Shown in pieces: positions 23,435-51,320 of a stretch of 64,000 nucleotides of DNA (position 1 is its first letter; each line of letters begins with the position of its first letter). Source of the stretch: a phage; sequence record PZ296772.1; one strand, given 5' to 3'. Made by a program: the position numbers and the translations under genes. The notes under the pieces are model-generated. The model was not told the DNA's origin. It did not search any database and worked only from the letters and a program-made list of their open reading frames with translations.

Positions 23435-24070
23435 ATGAAAACTACTCCTATTACTATCGCTATTGACGCAATCATAAAACAAGCTTCTTCTTTGGCCGCT
23501 ATGGCCAAAGTAATTAGTCAAAACCCTGCTCGTTATAATGCTATTCTAGAAACTCTTCGACGCCCGGGACTTAGTAATTATGAAAGCCGAGTAATTATTA
23601 CAGGTGTTGGTAAGAATGCTAATATTGCAACTAAAGCTTCTGAGACATTTGCTTCACTCGGTATCCCGAGTATGTACTTGAACACCGGGCACTATTCTCA
23701 CGGTGATGCAGGATTTATTGCGCCTAATGATGTATTAGTTCACATCAGTCGTTCTGGTAAGACTGAAGAAATGATAGGTGTTGCTAAACATCTTCGTATG
23801 ATTCGTCCTCAGGTTAAACAGATTCTGTTACATTGTAACCCTGACATTCCACAAGAATACGAAGCTCTTTTTGATTATACGTTCTGTACCGGTATCGCGG
23901 TAGAAGTTGACGAGAACTCTTTAGCTCCGACAATGTCAACCACATTGTTGTTAGCGCTTATCGATACGTTCGCTATCAACCTTTCGTCTGAGCGTGGATT
24001 TACCTCTAATGACTTCCTTAAGTTCCACCCTGGTGGTGCACTAGGTGCCATGTTACGAGGCGAACAATGA
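23435..24070 (+). CDS. SIS-domain sugar-phosphate isomerase, KdsD/GutQ-type arabinose-5-phosphate isomerase-like
   Basis: 211 aa; GVGKNANIA phosphosugar-binding loop, HGDAGFI, LAPTMSTT signature, HPGGALG. Confidence 0.75.
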   Translation: MKTTPITIAIDAIIKQASSLAAMAKVISQNPARYNAILETLRRPGLSNYESRVIITGVGKNANIATKASETFASLGIPSMYLNTGHYSHGDAGFIAPNDVLVHISRSGKTEEMIGVAKHLRMIRPQVKQILLHCNPDIPQEYEALFDYTFCTGIAVEVDENSLAPTMSTTLLLALIDTFAINLSSERGFTSNDFLKFHPGGALGAMLRGEQ

Positions 24071-24251: not shown

Positions 24252-25937
24252 ATGAAAAAAGCTGTTATTCTTGGTGCTGGACTGGCAACTCGTTTGTATC
24301 CAATAACGCATCATATTCCAAAAGTTCTTGTGAACTATAAACAAGACACTATTCTGAGCAATTTGTATACAATTTATTCTGACCTTGGCGCAGATGAAAT
24401 TATTGTAGTAGTTCATTCAAAATTTGCTGAAACTGTTCGAGCTTATTGTGAGCAAGAAGGGTTCAATGTGACTATTCGTACAGTTGATGAAGCGTATGGT
24501 TCTGCTTATGCTCTTGCTAAATTACACAAAGATTTAGACGGCCATAATGTAATTGTTAACTGGTGTGATATTATTCCTGATTTTGGTTCATGGTCTTGGA
24601 ATGTTAACGCAATCTATGTTAAGGGTGACGAATGTCGGTATAATTTCGACGGTGAAAATATCACTAACGTAGGTTCAACAGGTGGTAATGTTGTAGGAAT
24701 TTATCAGTTCAAAGACTGGGAATTCTATATGGGTTCTACTGATGAGGAAATTCATGAATACTGCAAAGGACGCGATTTCGTAGAATTCCTTTACAGCGGC
24801 GCATTCAATAAATCAGAGCTTATGAATCTAATTGATTTAGGTGATATGCCTAAACTTGAAAAAGCTCATGAAGTTCGTGAACTTAATCGTAGTTTTAATG
24901 CAGTTGAAATTGGTGAAGAAACTGTAACTAAATTCGCATTAACCGAACAGGGTCGAGCTCTTCAGAAAGATGAGATTTCATGGTATCTTAAAGTGAAATC
25001 AGATTCAGTTCCTCAGTTAGTTTCTGTAAATGAAAATAACTTTGAAATGGAACGTATTAAAGGTAAGCCGGCATTTGAATATATTAAATCCAAATCAAGT
25101 CTTGCTCGTCCACAAATTGTTGATGCAATTTTAGATGCACTAAAATTCAGCACAGACACGTATTTTGTAAGTCCTGAAACTGTTCGTCGTGATTTCACTA
25201 AAGAATTCTATACGAAAGTTATTGATCGTTGTGAAAGCATTCAGCCATTGATTGATTCATTTGGTAAAATCACACACGTGAACTACACTAAGATTGGACG
25301 TCTGAAGCCAATGCTGAAACAAGCTTTAGAACACCTTATTCGTTATCATAACCGTTCTCAGGGACAGTACTCTGTTATTCATGGTGACCCGAACTTCAGT
25401 AATACTATGATTACTGATAACGGCGAAGTCAAGTTTATCGACCCTCGTGGATATTTTGGCGAAACCAAGATTTACGGGCCAAAATTGTATGATGAAGCTA
25501 AAGTGCTTTATGCTGTTTCAGGTTATGATGAATTCAATGCTAATCCGACCTGGGGACAGTTTACTATTGATGAAACAACTTGTAATGTGACTATTAACAT
25601 CAATCCATTAATTTACAAATATGGAAAGATGAGTTCGTTTAACGAGTATCATCATTTGGCTGTAGCAATTATCTGGATTGCATTAGGTGGTTATTTCAAG
25701 AATAATCCACTTAAAGCGGTAGCCGCATATTATAAAGGTATGGAACTTCTGACTAAGCAATTACGTAACATGGGCCGTGTACTTCAAGATGGCTCTATTA
25801 GTTATGACGTAGCAGAACCTGTAACGGCTACTCTGATTACAAAAAATCCTGGTAAATGGGTACTAACTGATAAAGAAACTGGTGTTTCCTATCGTCCAAT
25901 CGGTGGCGATATCACTCATCAATGGGAACGAATCTAA
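24252..25937 (+). CDS. bifunctional sugar-1-phosphate nucleotidyltransferase / sugar kinase
   Basis: N-terminal LGAGLATRLYPIT resembles RmlA/GlmU GxGTRL pyrophosphorylase loop; C-terminal HGDPNFSNTMI...IDPRG resembles APH/choline-kinase-type catalytic loop. Confidence 0.7.
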   Translation: MKKAVILGAGLATRLYPITHHIPKVLVNYKQDTILSNLYTIYSDLGADEIIVVVHSKFAETVRAYCEQEGFNVTIRTVDEAYGSAYALAKLHKDLDGHNVIVNWCDIIPDFGSWSWNVNAIYVKGDECRYNFDGENITNVGSTGGNVVGIYQFKDWEFYMGSTDEEIHEYCKGRDFVEFLYSGAFNKSELMNLIDLGDMPKLEKAHEVRELNRSFNAVEIGEETVTKFALTEQGRALQKDEISWYLKVKSDSVPQLVSVNENNFEMERIKGKPAFEYIKSKSSLARPQIVDAILDALKFSTDTYFVSPETVRRDFTKEFYTKVIDRCESIQPLIDSFGKITHVNYTKIGRLKPMLKQALEHLIRYHNRSQGQYSVIHGDPNFSNTMITDNGEVKFIDPRGYFGETKIYGPKLYDEAKVLYAVSGYDEFNANPTWGQFTIDETTCNVTININPLIYKYGKMSSFNEYHHLAVAIIWIALGGYFKNNPLKAVAAYYKGMELLTKQLRNMGRVLQDGSISYDVAEPVTATLITKNPGKWVLTDKETGVSYRPIGGDITHQWERI

Positions 25938-26323
25938 TGCATCGTGTAGAAAACATGCTTAATCTTTGTTTTGATGTCGACGATTGTATAACAGAGTGGA
26001 ATAACAATCGTGATTACGTGAACTTCAAGCCAGACGTCGAAATGGTGACTGCCATTAATGCCCTGTATGATGCAGGGCATACCATAACGCTTTACACTGC
26101 TCGTGGTATGAAGTCAGTAGGTCCTGGACGTATAGCAATTGACATTCTACCGAGTCTGATTCAGAACTTGGAAAACATTGGTTTGAAGTACCATAATTTG
26201 CTAACACATAAACCAGTATATGATTGGATTATCGACGACAAAGCTATGCGTCCTGACGAATTCAAAGCTCTTATGAATAAAGGCGAATTCGAAACATTTA
26301 AATCATATAAACCGAACCTATAA
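25937..26323 (+). CDS. HAD-superfamily phosphatase (KdsC-like size)
   Basis: FDVDDCIT motif I, TLYTARG motif II, IIDDKA motif IV; about 128 aa. Confidence 0.65.
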   Translation: MHRVENMLNLCFDVDDCITEWNNNRDYVNFKPDVEMVTAINALYDAGHTITLYTARGMKSVGPGRIAIDILPSLIQNLENIGLKYHNLLTHKPVYDWIIDDKAMRPDEFKALMNKGEFETFKSYKPNL

Positions 26324-26371: not shown

Positions 26372-27541
26372 ATGCAAAAAATGAATACTTTTAAAATCGG
26401 AACGAATTTTGATTTAGCTCTTCTTGATAAAATCGTAGAGCTCAATAAAACTTATCCTAATAGCTTGATAAACGAAGTGTACGGCTCTACAAGAGAAATG
26501 GCTTTTGTAGCAGCCAGACCTGATTTTAGGCTTCCTGACGTTGACAAAAAGATGTTAGAAGATTACGTTAAACGTTGTAACGAATTAGGTATTTGCTTTA
26601 ACTATACACTCAACACGATAAATCCTGGTTCAAAAAGAGAACTAGTTGAGTGGAAGAAGAAAGCTATTCAGGATTATGTTCAGTATCTTTGGTCAATAGG
26701 CGTATGGCGTATTACTATCGCTAACCCTGTTGTTATGGAAATTGTTCGTGAAGTAAATAAAGACATTGAGATTGAAGTTTCAACAATTCTACATGTTGAT
26801 GCTGTAACTCAAATCAAATACTTGCATGACCAATATAATATCAAAAAGGTCTGCTGTGGAATTCATAAGAACCGTTCAGTTTCTTTCCTGAAGCGTGCAG
26901 CAGAGTTTTGCAATAAGAACAATATAATATTTGAAGTTCTTGTAAATGAGTTCTGTTCTAATGCTGGTAAAGGGTATACAACACATTGTAGCTATCGTGA
27001 CTCTTGCTATATTTTCCATAGTACTGATGTTACAGCTGATGATGCTAAATCCTTAAATGGATATCCAATGCAGCACTGTATTAAAGCTCGTGATACAGAC
27101 CCATTTAACTGGTTGAGAACTCGTTTTGTTCGTCCTCAAGATTTGAAACTTTATAATGATATTGGTATCACTCAATTCAAAGTTTCAGGACGTACAGGTA
27201 GCACAGACTACATTTTGAAAGTTCTTGAAGCATACGCTTCTGAAAAGTTTGAAGGTAATTTGTTAGAACTGTGGAAGCCTTTAGAGACTATTTTCACTCT
27301 TGAAAACGAAACCGAGTTTTCACATACAGTAAATATTGAAACCTCTTTGTTAGATGGCTTTTTAGAAAAAAGGTGGTTCAGACATCCAGATTTCGATTGT
27401 GCTAATGAAATCTGTGGGACGACGTGTACATATTGTGAAAGATATTATAAACGTCAGTTATCTAAAAACGGGTTAGCAGAAAACTCTATATCTATTATTG
27501 ATATAACTAACTCTGATGACGCTTTGAGGTACCCGGAATGA
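26372..27541 (+). CDS. Cys-rich protein of unknown function in the modification island
   Basis: 389 aa; cysteine-dense segment NEFCSNAGKGYTTHCSYRDSCYIF loosely reminiscent of peptidase U32-type cysteine motifs; terminal C-x-C-x5-C-T-Y-C. Confidence 0.5.
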   Translation: MQKMNTFKIGTNFDLALLDKIVELNKTYPNSLINEVYGSTREMAFVAARPDFRLPDVDKKMLEDYVKRCNELGICFNYTLNTINPGSKRELVEWKKKAIQDYVQYLWSIGVWRITIANPVVMEIVREVNKDIEIEVSTILHVDAVTQIKYLHDQYNIKKVCCGIHKNRSVSFLKRAAEFCNKNNIIFEVLVNEFCSNAGKGYTTHCSYRDSCYIFHSTDVTADDAKSLNGYPMQHCIKARDTDPFNWLRTRFVRPQDLKLYNDIGITQFKVSGRTGSTDYILKVLEAYASEKFEGNLLELWKPLETIFTLENETEFSHTVNIETSLLDGFLEKRWFRHPDFDCANEICGTTCTYCERYYKRQLSKNGLAENSISIIDITNSDDALRYPE

Positions 27542-27777
27542 TTTCTAGAAAAACTTTTAATCACCAACTTAATGAAGAGATTTTGACTACGAAACTGAAC
27601 ACTAACGAACAAATTCTTAAAAAGGCCCTTATGGGCCTGTTTGAAACCAAAGCGGCTAAAGTGATTAAAGAACCTGTTCAATTGGAATACTACGCTGATG
27701 CATTTCTTCACAGTGTTCTTGGAAGTATCGATGCTGAAGCTTTACGGTATACCAACATTGCCAAGAAATTCAAATAA
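27538..27777 (+). CDS. hypothetical protein
   Basis: 79-aa ORF coupled to upstream gene. Confidence 0.45.
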   Translation: MISRKTFNHQLNEEILTTKLNTNEQILKKALMGLFETKAAKVIKEPVQLEYYADAFLHSVLGSIDAEALRYTNIAKKFK

Positions 27778-27819: not shown

Positions 27820-28536
27820 ATGGGAAAACATAACACAATGAAATATATCAAAGCCGCAGATTTTCAAGCCGCATTTAAAGCAGTCAATCGTGAAATTTTA
27901 GAAAACCCAGAATTCGTAACTGATTCTCGTATTGGACGTTGTAATGAAATTGGGTCTATGACAGTAGTTGTTGACACTCCATCATCATTCAAAATGACCG
28001 ACCCACGTATTAACCGCATCTCTTATGAATATGCTGAAGACTTCTGGAAGTTTATGATTTCTGGTGGTACTGACGCAGAAGAAGCGTTTAAGGCATACCC
28101 TAATGTCGCTAAATTTATTTCTAAACCCAAATCAGACGCTTTGCCGGCGAACTTCAACACTTTCTATGGTCCTCGCATTGCGGCCCAATTACCAGCTCTT
28201 CTAAAAGAACTTAAAGAGAAGCCTAACTCTCGAAGAGTTGTGTTCCAAATTCTAGAAAGTTCTGATCAGGCTTTGCTTGATTCGGACGAAACGCTTGAAT
28301 ATCCATGTACTGACTCAGTGACTTATTATATTCGTGATGGTAAGCTTTATACCCACTGTCATATGCGTTCTCAGAACTGTGCTGTTGTTATGCAGTTGGA
28401 TTTTTATCTCCAAGGAAAATTACTTCATTATATCGCTAACGAATGCGGTGTAGAAGTAGGTGATTATACTCATACCATGGTAAGTGCCCATGTGTTTGAA
28501 CGTGATTTTGATTATGTTAAAGGATTCCTTGACTAA
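27820..28536 (+). CDS. 42: thymidylate-synthase-fold dCMP hydroxymethylase homologue (diverged gp42)
   Basis: 238 aa; PNSRRVV...YPCTDSVTYYIRDGKLYTHCHMRSQ aligns by eye with T4 gp42 PDSRR...MCTNTVQYLIRDKK...NMRSND. Confidence 0.65.
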   Translation: MGKHNTMKYIKAADFQAAFKAVNREILENPEFVTDSRIGRCNEIGSMTVVVDTPSSFKMTDPRINRISYEYAEDFWKFMISGGTDAEEAFKAYPNVAKFISKPKSDALPANFNTFYGPRIAAQLPALLKELKEKPNSRRVVFQILESSDQALLDSDETLEYPCTDSVTYYIRDGKLYTHCHMRSQNCAVVMQLDFYLQGKLLHYIANECGVEVGDYTHTMVSAHVFERDFDYVKGFLD

Positions 28537-29435
28537 TGGCTATTTTCCGCGTACCTATCTTGAGTATGCGGTCTTATGAAACTGGACAGTATGCTATCCT
28601 TAAGGATGGCAACTTCCAACTTCATTTGCACCGTGCTAATCCAGGTGATGTGATTACATATCCACGTAATGCATCTGATATTAAAGAATGTGAACGTCTT
28701 TTCCCGGAATTTAAGTTTGTTCCATTATGGTATAAAGATAACGCGTATAACACTCGTAAATATTTCTGGTCTGAAAATGAATTTGTGGTTGATTCATTAA
28801 TTGCTTATTATGATTGTGATTTTCTAATCACAGATATCACTGGATATGATGGCGCTTTTGACGTAGAATTCAATTTCAATATCACTGCAGACCCTAATAA
28901 ACCACGTTTTTATATTGATGAATTCTTAAAAACCGACATGTTGTCTGTTAATCGTTCAATCCAAACAACTGTGTTGAATAAACGTCAAAAGGAAGTGCTG
29001 GTTAACGCTGGTGCCGATGGTAATAAGATTATCGTAACGCAGAAAGTTATACGTCCTTCCGTCATGCAGCGTCTTGTAGGTGATTTGGCTCCTATTCATC
29101 TAGATGGTATTTTTCATCCATTTCGAATTAGTGACCCATGCTATCGTTTTGAACAAGTTGTTGAATGCGCAATTCAATTAGGTCAACCGCTTTATATAAC
29201 TGATCCAAATAATAGTTTCGACAGAAATAAGTATCCTGAAGAAGCGCTGATTCGAATTTTTAATCCAACTAAAACTGAGTACTATCAAATTCTTAAAGGA
29301 CGTCCGAAGATTCAATATTTCGAAAATCCTGAAGAAGTATTCCATCCAGGTCTTGGTGAGTTCATCTACTTTAATGCTTTAATTTCTTCACCGTATAATA
29401 TACCTAAATACGAAGATGTCGTAATCGAGGAATAA
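28536..29435 (+). CDS. hypothetical protein occupying the T4 beta-glucosyltransferase position
   Basis: 299-aa ORF coupled to the gp42 homologue; no motif recognised. Confidence 0.5.
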   Translation: MAIFRVPILSMRSYETGQYAILKDGNFQLHLHRANPGDVITYPRNASDIKECERLFPEFKFVPLWYKDNAYNTRKYFWSENEFVVDSLIAYYDCDFLITDITGYDGAFDVEFNFNITADPNKPRFYIDEFLKTDMLSVNRSIQTTVLNKRQKEVLVNAGADGNKIIVTQKVIRPSVMQRLVGDLAPIHLDGIFHPFRISDPCYRFEQVVECAIQLGQPLYITDPNNSFDRNKYPEEALIRIFNPTKTEYYQILKGRPKIQYFENPEEVFHPGLGEFIYFNALISSPYNIPKYEDVVIEE

Positions 29436-50219: not shown

Positions 50220-51320
50220 ATGAAAGTTATGTTTATCCCATCTCGTGCAGTCCCATTTAATCCTGACCGTGTACAAGGTGGACTTGAAGCAGTACATTTA
50301 AATGTGTTGAAATATCTTGTGTCCATCGGTGCTGATATTGATTATATCGGCTTTGATAATGACACGTTTGGTGACTGGAAAGTTACACACCATCCTGTTG
50401 GTCATCTGACTAAATTCAGTCTAGGTATGAGTTATACTATGGCTCGTAAGATTGTTGAACTAGCCGGCATCCATGAATACGATTTTGTTGTTACTATGGA
50501 ACCGACTAAACTAACCGTCCAAGCAATTAAAGACGCAGGTCTCTCTAAAGTTCATAAGAATTTTATGGCTACGCCATTTGAACCGGTGTCTCGTGGTATT
50601 GTTCAAATTTGGGATCAGACTATCCAGATTCACAAGAACGGTGGGAAGAGCTATGCTCCTACTAAAGCCTTCCGTGAATTTGAACGTAAATATTGTCATA
50701 TGACTTCAGCTCTTACTGACAAAATTGATTATGACTACTGGCGTGAAAATCCATTATTTGAACCTGATGACTACCCGGTTATTTGTTTGAATGAAAAACC
50801 TGAAGTTCTTCCGGCAACTGATTTGATTATTAGTGCTCAACGTTATGACACTAAGATGCGTCGCACTGATGTTGCTCTTGAAGCAATTAAAGCACTAGGC
50901 GAAAATGGTATTGGTTATTGTCCAAGCAAATGGGCACCACCAGCTAAATATCCTGTTATTATTGATGCTCCACACAGTGAAATCATGGAACGTCTTAAAA
51001 CAGCTAAAGCACTTATTAATACATGTCCTGACACAGGTACGGTAGAGAATAGTTCTATTGAAGCCATCTCTAAAGGTGTCCCTGTAATCCAGTTAGTTTT
51101 TAAGGATTATCCTCATGCGACATTCGAATACGACCCAGATACTGTGCGTGTAGAAATTGATTCCTCTACTCCTAAGAAAGAAGTAGTTGCGCTTTACACA
51201 AAAGCTGTATTAGAATTCACTGACACATACAAAGCTCGAGTTAAACGTGCTGAAGCAGTATGGAAGAAGTATAATCGAGATGCAGTTGTTGCGATGTGGG
51301 ATAAAATCTTCACAGCGTAA
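50220..51320 (+). CDS. GT-B fold glycosyltransferase (GT4-like), candidate DNA hydroxymethylcytosine pentosyltransferase
   Basis: 366 aa; N-terminal MKVMFIPSRAVPFNPDRVQGGLEAVHLNVLKYL and C-terminal GTVENSSIEAISKGVPVI resemble GT1/GT4 donor-binding motifs. Confidence 0.6.
   Translation: MKVMFIPSRAVPFNPDRVQGGLEAVHLNVLKYLVSIGADIDYIGFDNDTFGDWKVTHHPVGHLTKFSLGMSYTMARKIVELAGIHEYDFVVTMEPTKLTVQAIKDAGLSKVHKNFMATPFEPVSRGIVQIWDQTIQIHKNGGKSYAPTKAFREFERKYCHMTSALTDKIDYDYWRENPLFEPDDYPVICLNEKPEVLPATDLIISAQRYDTKMRRTDVALEAIKALGENGIGYCPSKWAPPAKYPVIIDAPHSEIMERLKTAKALINTCPDTGTVENSSIEAISKGVPVIQLVFKDYPHATFEYDPDTVRVEIDSSTPKKEVVALYTKAVLEFTDTYKARVKRAEAVWKKYNRDAVVAMWDKIFTA

What the first reader, a model, noticed from the sequence alone, without database searches (positions are those of the whole stretch)
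24252..25937. Kinase-nucleotidyltransferase fusion suggests a salvage-type sugar activation route inside a phage
A single 561-aa polypeptide joins an N-terminal RmlA/GlmU-like pyrophosphorylase loop (LGAGLATRLYPIT) to a C-terminal APH-like kinase catalytic loop (HGDPNFSN...IDPRG). This architecture is analogous to the fucokinase/GDP-fucose pyrophosphorylase and arabinokinase/pyrophosphorylase fusions in eukaryotic and bacterial salvage pathways, and is unusual for a phage. Together with the adjacent HAD phosphatase it implies a route through free sugar to sugar-1-phosphate to NDP-sugar.
Basis: inference. Interest (0 to 1): 0.75.

Follow-up and report, generated by a model that had tools for sequence, protein, structure and literature searches.

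The report
Known phage UDP-arabinose synthesis enzyme (AfhE)

Summary
The ORF at 24252-25937 (+) is a genuine 561-aa fusion of a sugar-1-phosphate nucleotidyltransferase and an APH/choline-kinase-fold kinase. An arabinose-5-phosphate isomerase lies upstream and a small HAD phosphatase overlaps its 3' end.

The window is a Mosigvirus (RB69-like T-even phage). The protein is identical to Bas47 QXV75156.1 and 556/561 identical to RB69 ORF53_52c. This gene was resequenced and expressed in 2018. Its HY126 orthologue, AfhE, is described in 2026 as a D-arabinose-5-phosphate kinase plus UDP-D-arabinose pyrophosphorylase, working with the phosphatase AfhF.

Three points do not hold:
- The route is de novo from ribulose-5-P. 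As reported, it runs Ara5P, then Ara-1,5-bisphosphate, then Ara-1-P, then UDP-arabinofuranose, like the ADP/GDP-heptose pathway. It is not free-sugar salvage.
- The kinase is not the GHMP type found in fucokinase fusions.
- The gene is common: 364 phage genomes encode it full length.

Verdict: already known, low interest.

The neighbouring U32 "peptidase" (26372-27541) remains unassigned. It may be a prephenate-dependent, oxygen-independent cytosine hydroxylase.

The parts
23435..24070 (+). Arabinose-5-phosphate isomerase: a SIS domain without CBS domains, homologous to RB69 gp55. Proposed to convert D-ribulose-5-P to D-arabinose-5-P.
   Evidence: Pfam SIS at E=9.6e-10. NCBIfam KpsF/GutQ TIGR00393 at E=8.9e-32 and KdsD at E=3.9e-30, both below the full-length cutoffs because the protein is short. 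phrog_5670 at E=2.6e-116. Role as stated in PMC13326640.
24252..25937 (+). The finding: a 561-aa bifunctional protein, orthologue of HY126 AfhE, RB69 ORF53_52c and Bas47 bas47_0151.
   Evidence: ORF. Identical to QXV75156.1. 215/218 plus 341/343 identical to RB69p053 and RB69p052. phrog_4098 at E=9e-295.
24252..24875 (+). N-terminal domain (about residues 1-208): sugar-1-phosphate nucleotidyltransferase. Proposed reaction: Araf-1-P + UTP gives UDP-Araf + PPi.
   Evidence: PF00483 at 39.1 bits. Family profile against PDB: HddC 6jq8/5xhw at E=2e-13 and LicC 1jyk at E=1.7e-11. Foldseek to RmlA, MurU, LicC and HddC at about E=1e-8. G10, R14, K24, D106, D195, D198 and K201 are invariant.
24876..25772 (+). 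Kinase domain (about residues 209-507): APH/choline-kinase fold, an anomeric (C1) kinase. Proposed reaction: Ara5P + ATP gives Ara-1,5-bisphosphate.
25773..25934 (+). C-terminal tail of about 54 residues, mostly beta strands. Present in the T4-like phage members and absent from the more distant homologues. Function unknown.
   Evidence: Alignment A1. pLDDT 72-84. No Pfam family.
25922..26323 (+). Small HAD-superfamily phosphatase, orthologue of AfhF and RB69 gp51. Reported reaction: Ara-1,5-bisphosphate gives Ara-1-P. Its start overlaps the fusion's end by 16 nt.
   Evidence: TIGR01689 at E=2e-13. PDB 9iqw 126/129 identical and 1xpj at E=1.9e-10. phrog_1238. Role.
26372..27541 (+). U32-family Fe-S protein, homologous to RB69 gp50. 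It is not assigned a role in the published pathway. My hypothesis: a prephenate-dependent, O2-independent pyrimidine C5 hydroxylase.
   Evidence: PF01136 at E=7.4e-11. Ten invariant cysteines. A CM_2 chorismate mutase lies immediately downstream in phages LC53 and KLB31. Precedent from TrhP and RlhA in PMC6599085.
27538..27777 (+). 79-aa ORF found only in Mosigviruses. It occupies the slot that a chorismate mutase holds in other genera. Function unknown.
   Evidence: All homologues are Mosigvirus sequences at 80% identity or more and carry no Pfam domain. hhalign against the phage chorismate mutases gives probability 0.1%.
27820..28536 (+). Thymidylate-synthase homologue, the flavin- and O2-dependent 5-hydroxy-dCMP synthase (RB69 gp48).
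   Evidence: PF00303 at E=2.4e-15. PDB 9iqc/9ir2 235/238 identical. Function from PMC13326640.
28536..29435 (+). Putative first DNA arabinosyltransferase, corresponding to RB69 gp46:47.
   Evidence: Same position as RB69p046 and RB69p047. phrog_3891. No Pfam or PDB sequence hit. Role proposed in PMC13326640.
29437..29985 (+). Thymidylate-kinase-like nucleotide kinase (RB69 gp45).
   Evidence: Synteny with RB69p045, annotated thymidylate kinase. Table 1 of PMC13326640.
50220..51320 (+). Second arabinosyltransferase, homologous to RB69p003/ORF003c. It lies between the topoisomerase gene 39 and rIIA.
   Evidence: 357/366 identical to RB69p003. phrog_8302. Role proposed in PMC6024577 and PMC13326640.

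Best explanation
The gene encodes the AfhE-type bifunctional enzyme of the phage DNA arabinosylation pathway. The proposed sequence of steps is:
1. The upstream SIS isomerase converts host D-ribulose-5-P to D-arabinose-5-P.
2. The C-terminal APH-fold kinase domain uses ATP to phosphorylate the anomeric hydroxyl, giving arabinofuranose-1,5-bisphosphate.
3. The overlapping downstream HAD phosphatase removes the 5-phosphate.
4. The N-terminal nucleotidyltransferase domain condenses arabinofuranose-1-P with UTP to give UDP-D-arabinofuranose.
5. Phage glycosyltransferases (28536-29435 and 50220-51320) transfer the arabinose onto 5-hydroxycytosine, which the ThyA-like hydroxylase (27820-28536) makes at the nucleotide level.

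Shown here: domain identities, conserved catalytic residues, gene context, and orthology to proteins discussed in the literature. Taken from the literature: substrates, order of steps and UDP specificity. Inferred: that this window's enzyme behaves like the HY126 enzyme.
For: Orthology:
- The protein is identical to Bas47 QXV75156.1, annotated 'putative enzyme involved in UDP-arabinose biosynthesis'.
- It is 556/561 identical to RB69 ORF53_52c.
- The neighbouring HAD and ThyA-like proteins are 126/129 and 235/238 identical to PDB 9iqw and 9iqc. I take these to be the HY126 structures mentioned.

Function in the literature:
- It states that AfhF is a Mg-dependent phosphatase acting on Araf-1,5-P2.
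- UDP-Araf, not UDP-Arap, supports in vitro arabinosylation.

Domains.

Pathway coupling:
- HAD-SIS-NT-kinase four-domain fusions exist.
- A phosphatase and a ThyA homologue lie immediately downstream of the fusion in Acinetobacter AM101 and Tenacibaculum PTm5, and, judged by ORF size and position, in Escherichia JS10. In PTm5 the phosphatase is annotated as a histidine phosphatase instead of a HAD.
- The same cassette occurs on a 350-kb jumbo-phage contig.

Essentiality: the Thanatos homologue TH1_060 is required for phage propagation.
Against: - I could not read the primary biochemical paper (He et al., Nat Chem Biol 2026). The substrate order rests on a secondary account.
- Table 1 of that same secondary source still lists the free-sugar order.
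- Purified Thanatos TH1_060 made no NDP-sugar from xylose-1-P with any of five NTPs. That study instead reported UDP-xylose formation by the glycosyltransferase-like TH1_063.
- No enzymatic test is possible with these tools.
Confidence: 0.82

Rival explanations
1. Free-sugar route. The HAD phosphatase dephosphorylates Ara5P to free D-arabinose, the kinase phosphorylates free arabinose at C1, and the transferase then makes the NDP-sugar.
For: - The same four enzymes would suffice.
- Table 1 of PMC13326640 still annotates the HAD as 'dephosphorylates Araf5p to Ara' and the kinase domain as 'phosphorylates Ara to Araf1p'.
- The structural relatives of the kinase domain that act on sugars (NahK, glucosamine kinase, maltokinase, MtnK) all use non-phosphorylated sugars.
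Against: - The text of the same paper, citing enzymology on HY126, describes AfhE as an arabinose-5-phosphate kinase and AfhF as acting on the 1,5-bisphosphate.
- By inference, a free pentose intermediate could leak away or be diverted by host enzymes.
- The isomerase / kinase / bisphosphate phosphatase / transferase order has an exact precedent in heptose activation. The best solved-structure relative of the N-terminal domain is HddC from that pathway.
Confidence: 0.12
2. The fusion is not the pentose pyrophosphorylase. The GT-like protein activates the sugar and the fusion has another role, for example as a glycosyltransferase or in activating a different small molecule, as the choline enzyme LicCA does.
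For: - In Shewanella phage Thanatos, TH1_060 showed no activity with xylose-1-P and NTPs, while TH1_063 gave UDP-xylose.
- The best sequence match in PDB to this protein alone is LicC, the choline-phosphate cytidylyltransferase.
Against: - Xylose-1-P is not the proposed substrate, so the negative result is uninformative.
- AfhE is reported to have both activities on arabinose phosphates.
- The fusion always travels with an Ara5P isomerase and a phosphatase, and is fused to both in some viruses.
- Choline has no role in this module.
Confidence: 0.04

Closest known systems
AfhE of Escherichia phage HY126; RB69 ORF53_52c (gp52:53); Bas47 bas47_0151; DLP3 gp82; Thanatos TH1_060
   Same: Same protein family and the same 561-aa architecture. 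Same neighbours: Ara5P isomerase, HAD phosphatase, ThyA-like 5hodCMP synthase and a glycosyltransferase. The window protein is identical to the Bas47 protein and 99% identical to the RB69 one.
   Different: Nothing substantive. The RB69 GenBank record splits the gene through one extra C at about window position 24906. Thomas et al. 2018 showed this to be a sequencing error.
ADP-/GDP-heptose pathway: GmhA (SIS isomerase), HldE or HddA (kinase), GmhB (HAD bisphosphate phosphatase), HldE C-terminal domain or HddC (nucleotidyltransferase)
   Same: The chemical logic and enzyme order are the same: isomerase, anomeric kinase acting on a sugar phosphate, bisphosphate phosphatase, nucleotidyltransferase. 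HldE is also a kinase-transferase fusion. HddC is the best solved-structure relative of the N-terminal domain (E=2e-13).
   Different: To my knowledge, the heptose kinases have PfkB (HldE) or GHMP (HddA) folds, not the APH fold. HldE has the opposite domain order and a cytidylyltransferase-type transferase. The sugar is a heptose and the nucleotide is ADP or GDP.
AmgK + MurU (MurNAc/GlcNAc recycling in Pseudomonas)
   Same: MurU is among the structural matches to the N-terminal half. To my knowledge, AmgK is an APH-family anomeric sugar kinase and the product is a UDP-sugar.
   Different: These are separate proteins acting on a free sugar, which is true salvage. No isomerase or phosphatase is involved.
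LicA + LicC, and the LicCA fusion of Treponema (choline kinase plus CTP:phosphocholine cytidylyltransferase)
   Different: The substrate is choline, not a sugar. The product is a CDP-alcohol. There is no phosphatase step.
Fucokinase/GDP-fucose pyrophosphorylase (Bacteroides FKP), the Leishmania arabino/fucokinase-pyrophosphorylase, and plant arabinokinase plus USP
   Same: Kinase and pyrophosphorylase activities are combined to make an NDP-sugar by way of a sugar-1-phosphate.
   Different: To my knowledge, those kinases have the GHMP fold, they act on free sugars taken up or recycled, and they make GDP-sugars. No GHMP domain was detected here.

Membership tests
AfhE / RB69 ORF53_52c family (phrog_4098) | Full-length sequence homology to named members | tested here: met
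   Identical to Bas47 QXV75156.1. 556/561 identical to RB69. phrog_4098 at E=9e-295 over positions 1-559 of 559.
AfhE / RB69 ORF53_52c family (phrog_4098) | N-terminal nucleotidyltransferase plus C-terminal protein-kinase-like domain, with catalytic residues intact | tested here: met
AfhE / RB69 ORF53_52c family (phrog_4098) | Gene context: Ara5P isomerase, AfhF-type phosphatase, 5hodCMP synthase and a glycosyltransferase | tested here: met
AfhE / RB69 ORF53_52c family (phrog_4098) | Ara5P 1-kinase and UDP-Araf pyrophosphorylase activities | not testable with these tools
   Known only through PMC13326640 citing He et al. 2026. The primary paper is not held.
Pfam NTP_transferase (PF00483) | Score above the gathering threshold | tested here: met
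   39.1 bits against a cutoff of 21.2.
Pfam APH (PF01636) / choline-kinase fold | Score above the gathering threshold | tested here: not met
   15.3 bits against a cutoff of 23.2 for this protein. Homologues P0051 and P0082 do pass.
Pfam APH (PF01636) / choline-kinase fold | Bilobal kinase fold with the beta-3 Lys, alpha-C Glu, HxDxxxxN catalytic loop and the Mg-binding Asp | tested here: met
GHMP-kinase sugar kinase/pyrophosphorylase fusions (FKP type) | GHMP kinase domain | tested here: not met
   No GHMP family appears in the Pfam scans, even at E<=10 on the C-terminal half. The fold is APH-like.
HldE-type heptose kinase/adenylyltransferase | PfkB kinase domain plus a cytidylyltransferase-like domain | tested here: not met
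   Neither family was detected. The resemblance is in pathway logic only.

The most novel reading that the evidence does not exclude
Nothing new remains for the fusion itself. The most novel reading left open by my evidence concerns its unassigned neighbour in the same module, the U32 'peptidase' at 26372-27541.

The reading: it is a prephenate-dependent, O2-independent pyrimidine C5 hydroxylase. It would give phages of facultatively anaerobic hosts a second, anaerobic route to 5-hydroxycytosine, alongside the O2/flavin ThyA-like enzyme. This would mirror the TrhP/TrhO dual pathway for tRNA.

Support:
- Ten invariant cysteines.
- 79-87% identity across phages whose fusion proteins are only 54-72% identical.
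- A genuine CM_2 chorismate mutase translationally overlapping it in phages LC53 and KLB31.
- No Acinetobacter among the ten largest host-name groups for the U32 gene, and none in the module of the one Acinetobacter phage I inspected, although 57 Acinetobacter phages carry the fusion.
- The U32 precedent for pyrimidine C5 hydroxylation.

Caveat: I do not know whether He et al. 2026 or Mahler et al. 2025 already address this gene.
Probability: 0.35. Interest if true: 0.7.

Novelty: already known. Interest (0 to 1): 0.15.

Why it matters
The enzyme supplies the activated sugar for arabinosyl-5-hydroxycytosine. This DNA hypermodification replaces all cytosine in RB69-like phages and shapes how they evade, or become sensitive to, restriction enzymes, CRISPR and type IV systems.

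That significance is already established in the literature (Thomas 2018, Mahler 2025, He 2026, Lee 2026). Re-finding the gene in another Mosigvirus adds an annotation, not a discovery.

The residual value lies in the open questions nearby: the role of the U32 Fe-S protein, and the spread of the same four activities as single-chain fusions in giant viruses.

Tried and rejected
- Primary papers. He et al. 2026 (Nat Chem Biol) and Mahler et al. 2025 (Cell Host Microbe) are not held. I relied on Lee et al. 2026, Thomas et al. 2018 and the Thanatos paper instead.
- Solved structure of the fusion. None was found. Sequence hits were only distant nucleotidyltransferases, and no Foldseek hit covered the full length (best TM-score relative to the query 0.30).
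- HY126 sequence. The phage exists in the NCBI taxonomy, but I could not retrieve its AfhE sequence. Closeness to the window is inferred from PDB entries 9iqw and 9iqc. The tool does not give their organism.
- Two Python attempts to align the RB69 locus failed because the locus file was not exposed. I used DNA alignment instead.
- I could not separate the bisphosphate route from the free-sugar route computationally.
- I tested whether the window's 79-aa ORF (27538-27777) is a diverged chorismate mutase. The result was negative.
- Rejected: GHMP-type (FKP-like) and HldE-type family membership (see the membership test).

Full report
**What is there**

The window is a T4-like phage replication region: genes 45, 44, 62, regA, 43, uvsX and 41. 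It is 99.7% identical to Escherichia phage PTK and 99.3% identical to the BASEL phage Bas47 (AlbertHofmann). Both belong to Mosigvirus, the genus of RB69.

[quoted passage not shown] The finding is the second of them, an ATG-started ORF at 24252-25937 encoding 561 aa.

**Domain check**

- **N-terminal half.** Residues 3-107 pass the Pfam NTP_transferase threshold, at 39.1 bits against a cutoff of 21.2.
- **C-terminal half by sequence.** It gives only sub-threshold hits, all within the protein-kinase-like clan. APH itself scores 15.3 bits against a cutoff of 23.2. More distant family members do pass APH.
- **Conservation.** I aligned 33 homologues that go down to 29% identity. The catalytic set of both halves is invariant: G10, R14 and K24, plus D106, D195, D198 and K201, in the transferase half. 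In the kinase half it is K227, E241, H377-G-D379, N384 and D397.
- **Structure.** AlphaFold models are confident, with mean pLDDT 92.8 for the full length and 88.9 for the C-terminal half.
  - The N-terminal half matches RmlA, MurU, LicC and HddC by Foldseek at about E=1e-8. The family profile matches HddC at E=2e-13.

**Already in the literature**

- The protein is residue-for-residue identical to Bas47 QXV75156.1, annotated "putative enzyme involved in UDP-arabinose biosynthesis".
- It is 215/218 plus 341/343 identical to RB69ORF053c and RB69ORF052c.
- The RB69 record splits the gene through one extra C at about window position 24906. Thomas et al. 2018 (PMC6024577) resequenced this region. 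They found a single 561-residue ORF53_52c, expressed it as a band consistent with the predicted 63.9 kDa, and proposed a role in UDP-arabinose formation.
- Lee et al. 2026 (PMC13326640) report that RB69 DNA carries mono- and di-arabinosylated 5-hydroxycytosine, not hydroxymethylcytosine.
- Citing He et al. [quoted passage not shown] They state that the HAD protein AfhF dephosphorylates arabinofuranose-1,5-bisphosphate to the 1-phosphate.
- UDP-arabinofuranose, not the pyranose, supports in vitro arabinosylation.
- I could not retrieve He et al. or Mahler et al..
- PDB entries 9iqw and 9iqc/9ir2 are 126/129 and 235/238 identical to the window's HAD and ThyA-like proteins. I take these to be the HY126 structures mentioned. 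If so, HY126 is a near-identical Mosigvirus, and the window's fusion is the AfhE orthologue by inference.
- Independently, the 54%-identical Thanatos homologue TH1_060 is essential for phage propagation.

**Mechanism**

1. Ribulose-5-P is converted to Ara5P by the SIS isomerase at 23435-24070 (KpsF/GutQ family, E=9e-32).
2. Ara5P is phosphorylated at C1 by the kinase domain, giving Ara-1,5-bisphosphate.
3. The HAD phosphatase at 25922-26323, which overlaps the fusion's end by 16 nt, removes the 5-phosphate to give Ara-1-P.
4. The N-terminal domain condenses Ara-1-P with UTP to give UDP-Araf.
5. Glycosyltransferases at 28536-29435 and 50220-51320 transfer the arabinose to 5-hydroxycytosine. The second is 98% identical to RB69p003.

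Domain identities, conservation and context are shown here. Substrates and step order come from the literature.

The logic copies the ADP/GDP-heptose pathway (GmhA, then HldE or HddA, then GmhB, then HldE or HddC). The transferase of that pathway, HddC, is the closest solved relative of the N-terminal domain.

**Independent support that the four activities belong together**

- Distant homologues (30-35% identity) exist as single chains carrying HAD, SIS, transferase and kinase. One sits among MutS7-HNH, Rpb2 and Rpb10 genes, which is a giant-virus context.
- A 350-kb jumbo-phage contig carries SIS, GT2, the fusion, a HAD and a ThyA homologue in a row.
- Acinetobacter AM101, Escherichia JS10 and Tenacibaculum PTm5 keep a phosphatase-sized ORF and a ThyA-homologue-sized ORF just downstream of the fusion. 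These are annotated as such in AM101 and PTm5 and judged by size and position in JS10. PTm5's phosphatase is annotated as a histidine phosphatase instead of a HAD.

The fusion, D-arabinose and the NDP-sugar product are right. Three points are not.

- **"Salvage through free sugar".** The adjacent isomerase contradicts salvage, and the reported bisphosphate order contradicts a free-sugar intermediate. Table 1 of Lee et al. still carries the free-sugar annotation, and I could not read the primary data. I therefore keep that rival at about 0.12.
- **The FKP/arabinokinase analogy.** It is functional only. To my knowledge those enzymes use GHMP kinases, and none was detected here.
- **"Unusual for a phage".** 369 phage records encode the protein, 364 of them full length. 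It also has its own PHROG family.

**Side observation**

The U32 "peptidase" at 26372-27541 has no role in the published pathway. Lee et al. list it only as "sugar or heterocycle reductase".

- It is 79-87% identical across phages whose fusion proteins are only 54-72% identical.
- It has ten invariant cysteines, including a C-terminal CX4CX3CX2C cluster.
- In Serratia phage LC53 and Klebsiella phage KLB31, a genuine Pfam CM_2 chorismate mutase directly follows it, with overlapping stop and start codons.
- The cellular U32 proteins TrhP and RlhA are prephenate-dependent and perform C5 hydroxylation of U and C. TrhP was shown to be O2-independent. TrhP is paired with an O2-dependent alternative, TrhO (PMC6599085).
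- The phage ThyA-like hydroxylase uses O2.
- No Acinetobacter (strictly aerobic host) appears among the ten largest host-name groups for the U32 gene, and phage AM101's module lacks it. Yet 57 Acinetobacter phages carry the fusion.
- I therefore suggest it provides an anaerobic, prephenate-dependent route to 5-hydroxycytosine.
- In this window, the slot after the U32 gene holds a Mosigvirus-only 79-aa ORF with no detectable relation to chorismate mutase. The host's own mutases would have to supply prephenate.
- No paper in the searchable library makes this link. Whether He et al. or Mahler et al. do is unknown to me.

**Verdict**

The feature is already known and the interest is low.

Noticed in passing
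window 26372-27541 (+): The U32 'peptidase' (RB69 gp50 homologue) is unassigned in the published pathway. It has ten invariant cysteines and is more conserved across phage genera than the fusion. In phages LC53 and KLB31 a true CM_2 chorismate mutase directly follows it. It is not among the top-listed Acinetobacter phages. It may be a prephenate-dependent, O2-independent cytosine C5 hydroxylase.
   Followed up: partly
window 27538-27777 (+): A 79-aa ORF overlaps the U32 stop codon and occupies the slot that a chorismate mutase holds in other genera. Its family is confined to Mosigviruses, some copies are truncated to 47-58 aa, and it has no detectable homology to chorismate mutase.
   Followed up: yes
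L002 8001-10781 (P0084); also P0088, P0089, P0091, P0092; L008 (P0118): Proteins of 890-955 aa carry HAD, usually SIS, nucleotidyltransferase and kinase in one chain. They are 30-35% identical to the window protein over the shared part. One lies among MutS7-HNH, Rpb2 and Rpb10 genes, a giant-virus-like context, and one comes from a eukaryote transcriptome set. The whole ribulose-5-P to NDP-pentose route appears to be fused into one polypeptide outside phages.
   Followed up: partly
window 25773-25934 (residues 508-561 of the fusion): A C-terminal tail of about 54 residues, mostly beta strands, is conserved in the T4-like phage members (motif TKxPxKWxLxDxETG...QWE). It is absent from the more distant homologues. 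It has no family match and its function is unknown.
   Followed up: partly
window about 24906; L005 (RB69 NC_004928 about 29116): The RB69 reference record still carries one extra C that splits this gene into RB69p053 and RB69p052. It also splits the first arabinosyltransferase into RB69p046 and RB69p047. The window has both genes intact.
   Followed up: yes
L012 6571-7275 (Tenacibaculum phage PTm5): In this distant phage, the gene after the fusion is annotated as a histidine phosphatase rather than a HAD, and a ThyA homologue follows it. This looks like a non-orthologous replacement of the phosphatase step.
   Followed up: no
L015 7145-7891 (80-kb phage-like contig): A 54%-identical U32 homologue lies next to a DAHP_synth_1-family gene (DAHP or KDO8P synthase), an epimerase, UDG-like genes and DNA polymerase III alpha. 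This could be another link between phage U32 proteins and shikimate or arabinose-5-P metabolism.
   Followed up: no
literature, Thanatos TH1_063 (homologue of window 28536-29435): The Thanatos study reports UDP-xylose formation from xylose-1-P and UTP by the glycosyltransferase-like TH1_063. Lee et al. regard that protein as the first arabinosyltransferase. The two assignments have not been reconciled.
   Followed up: no
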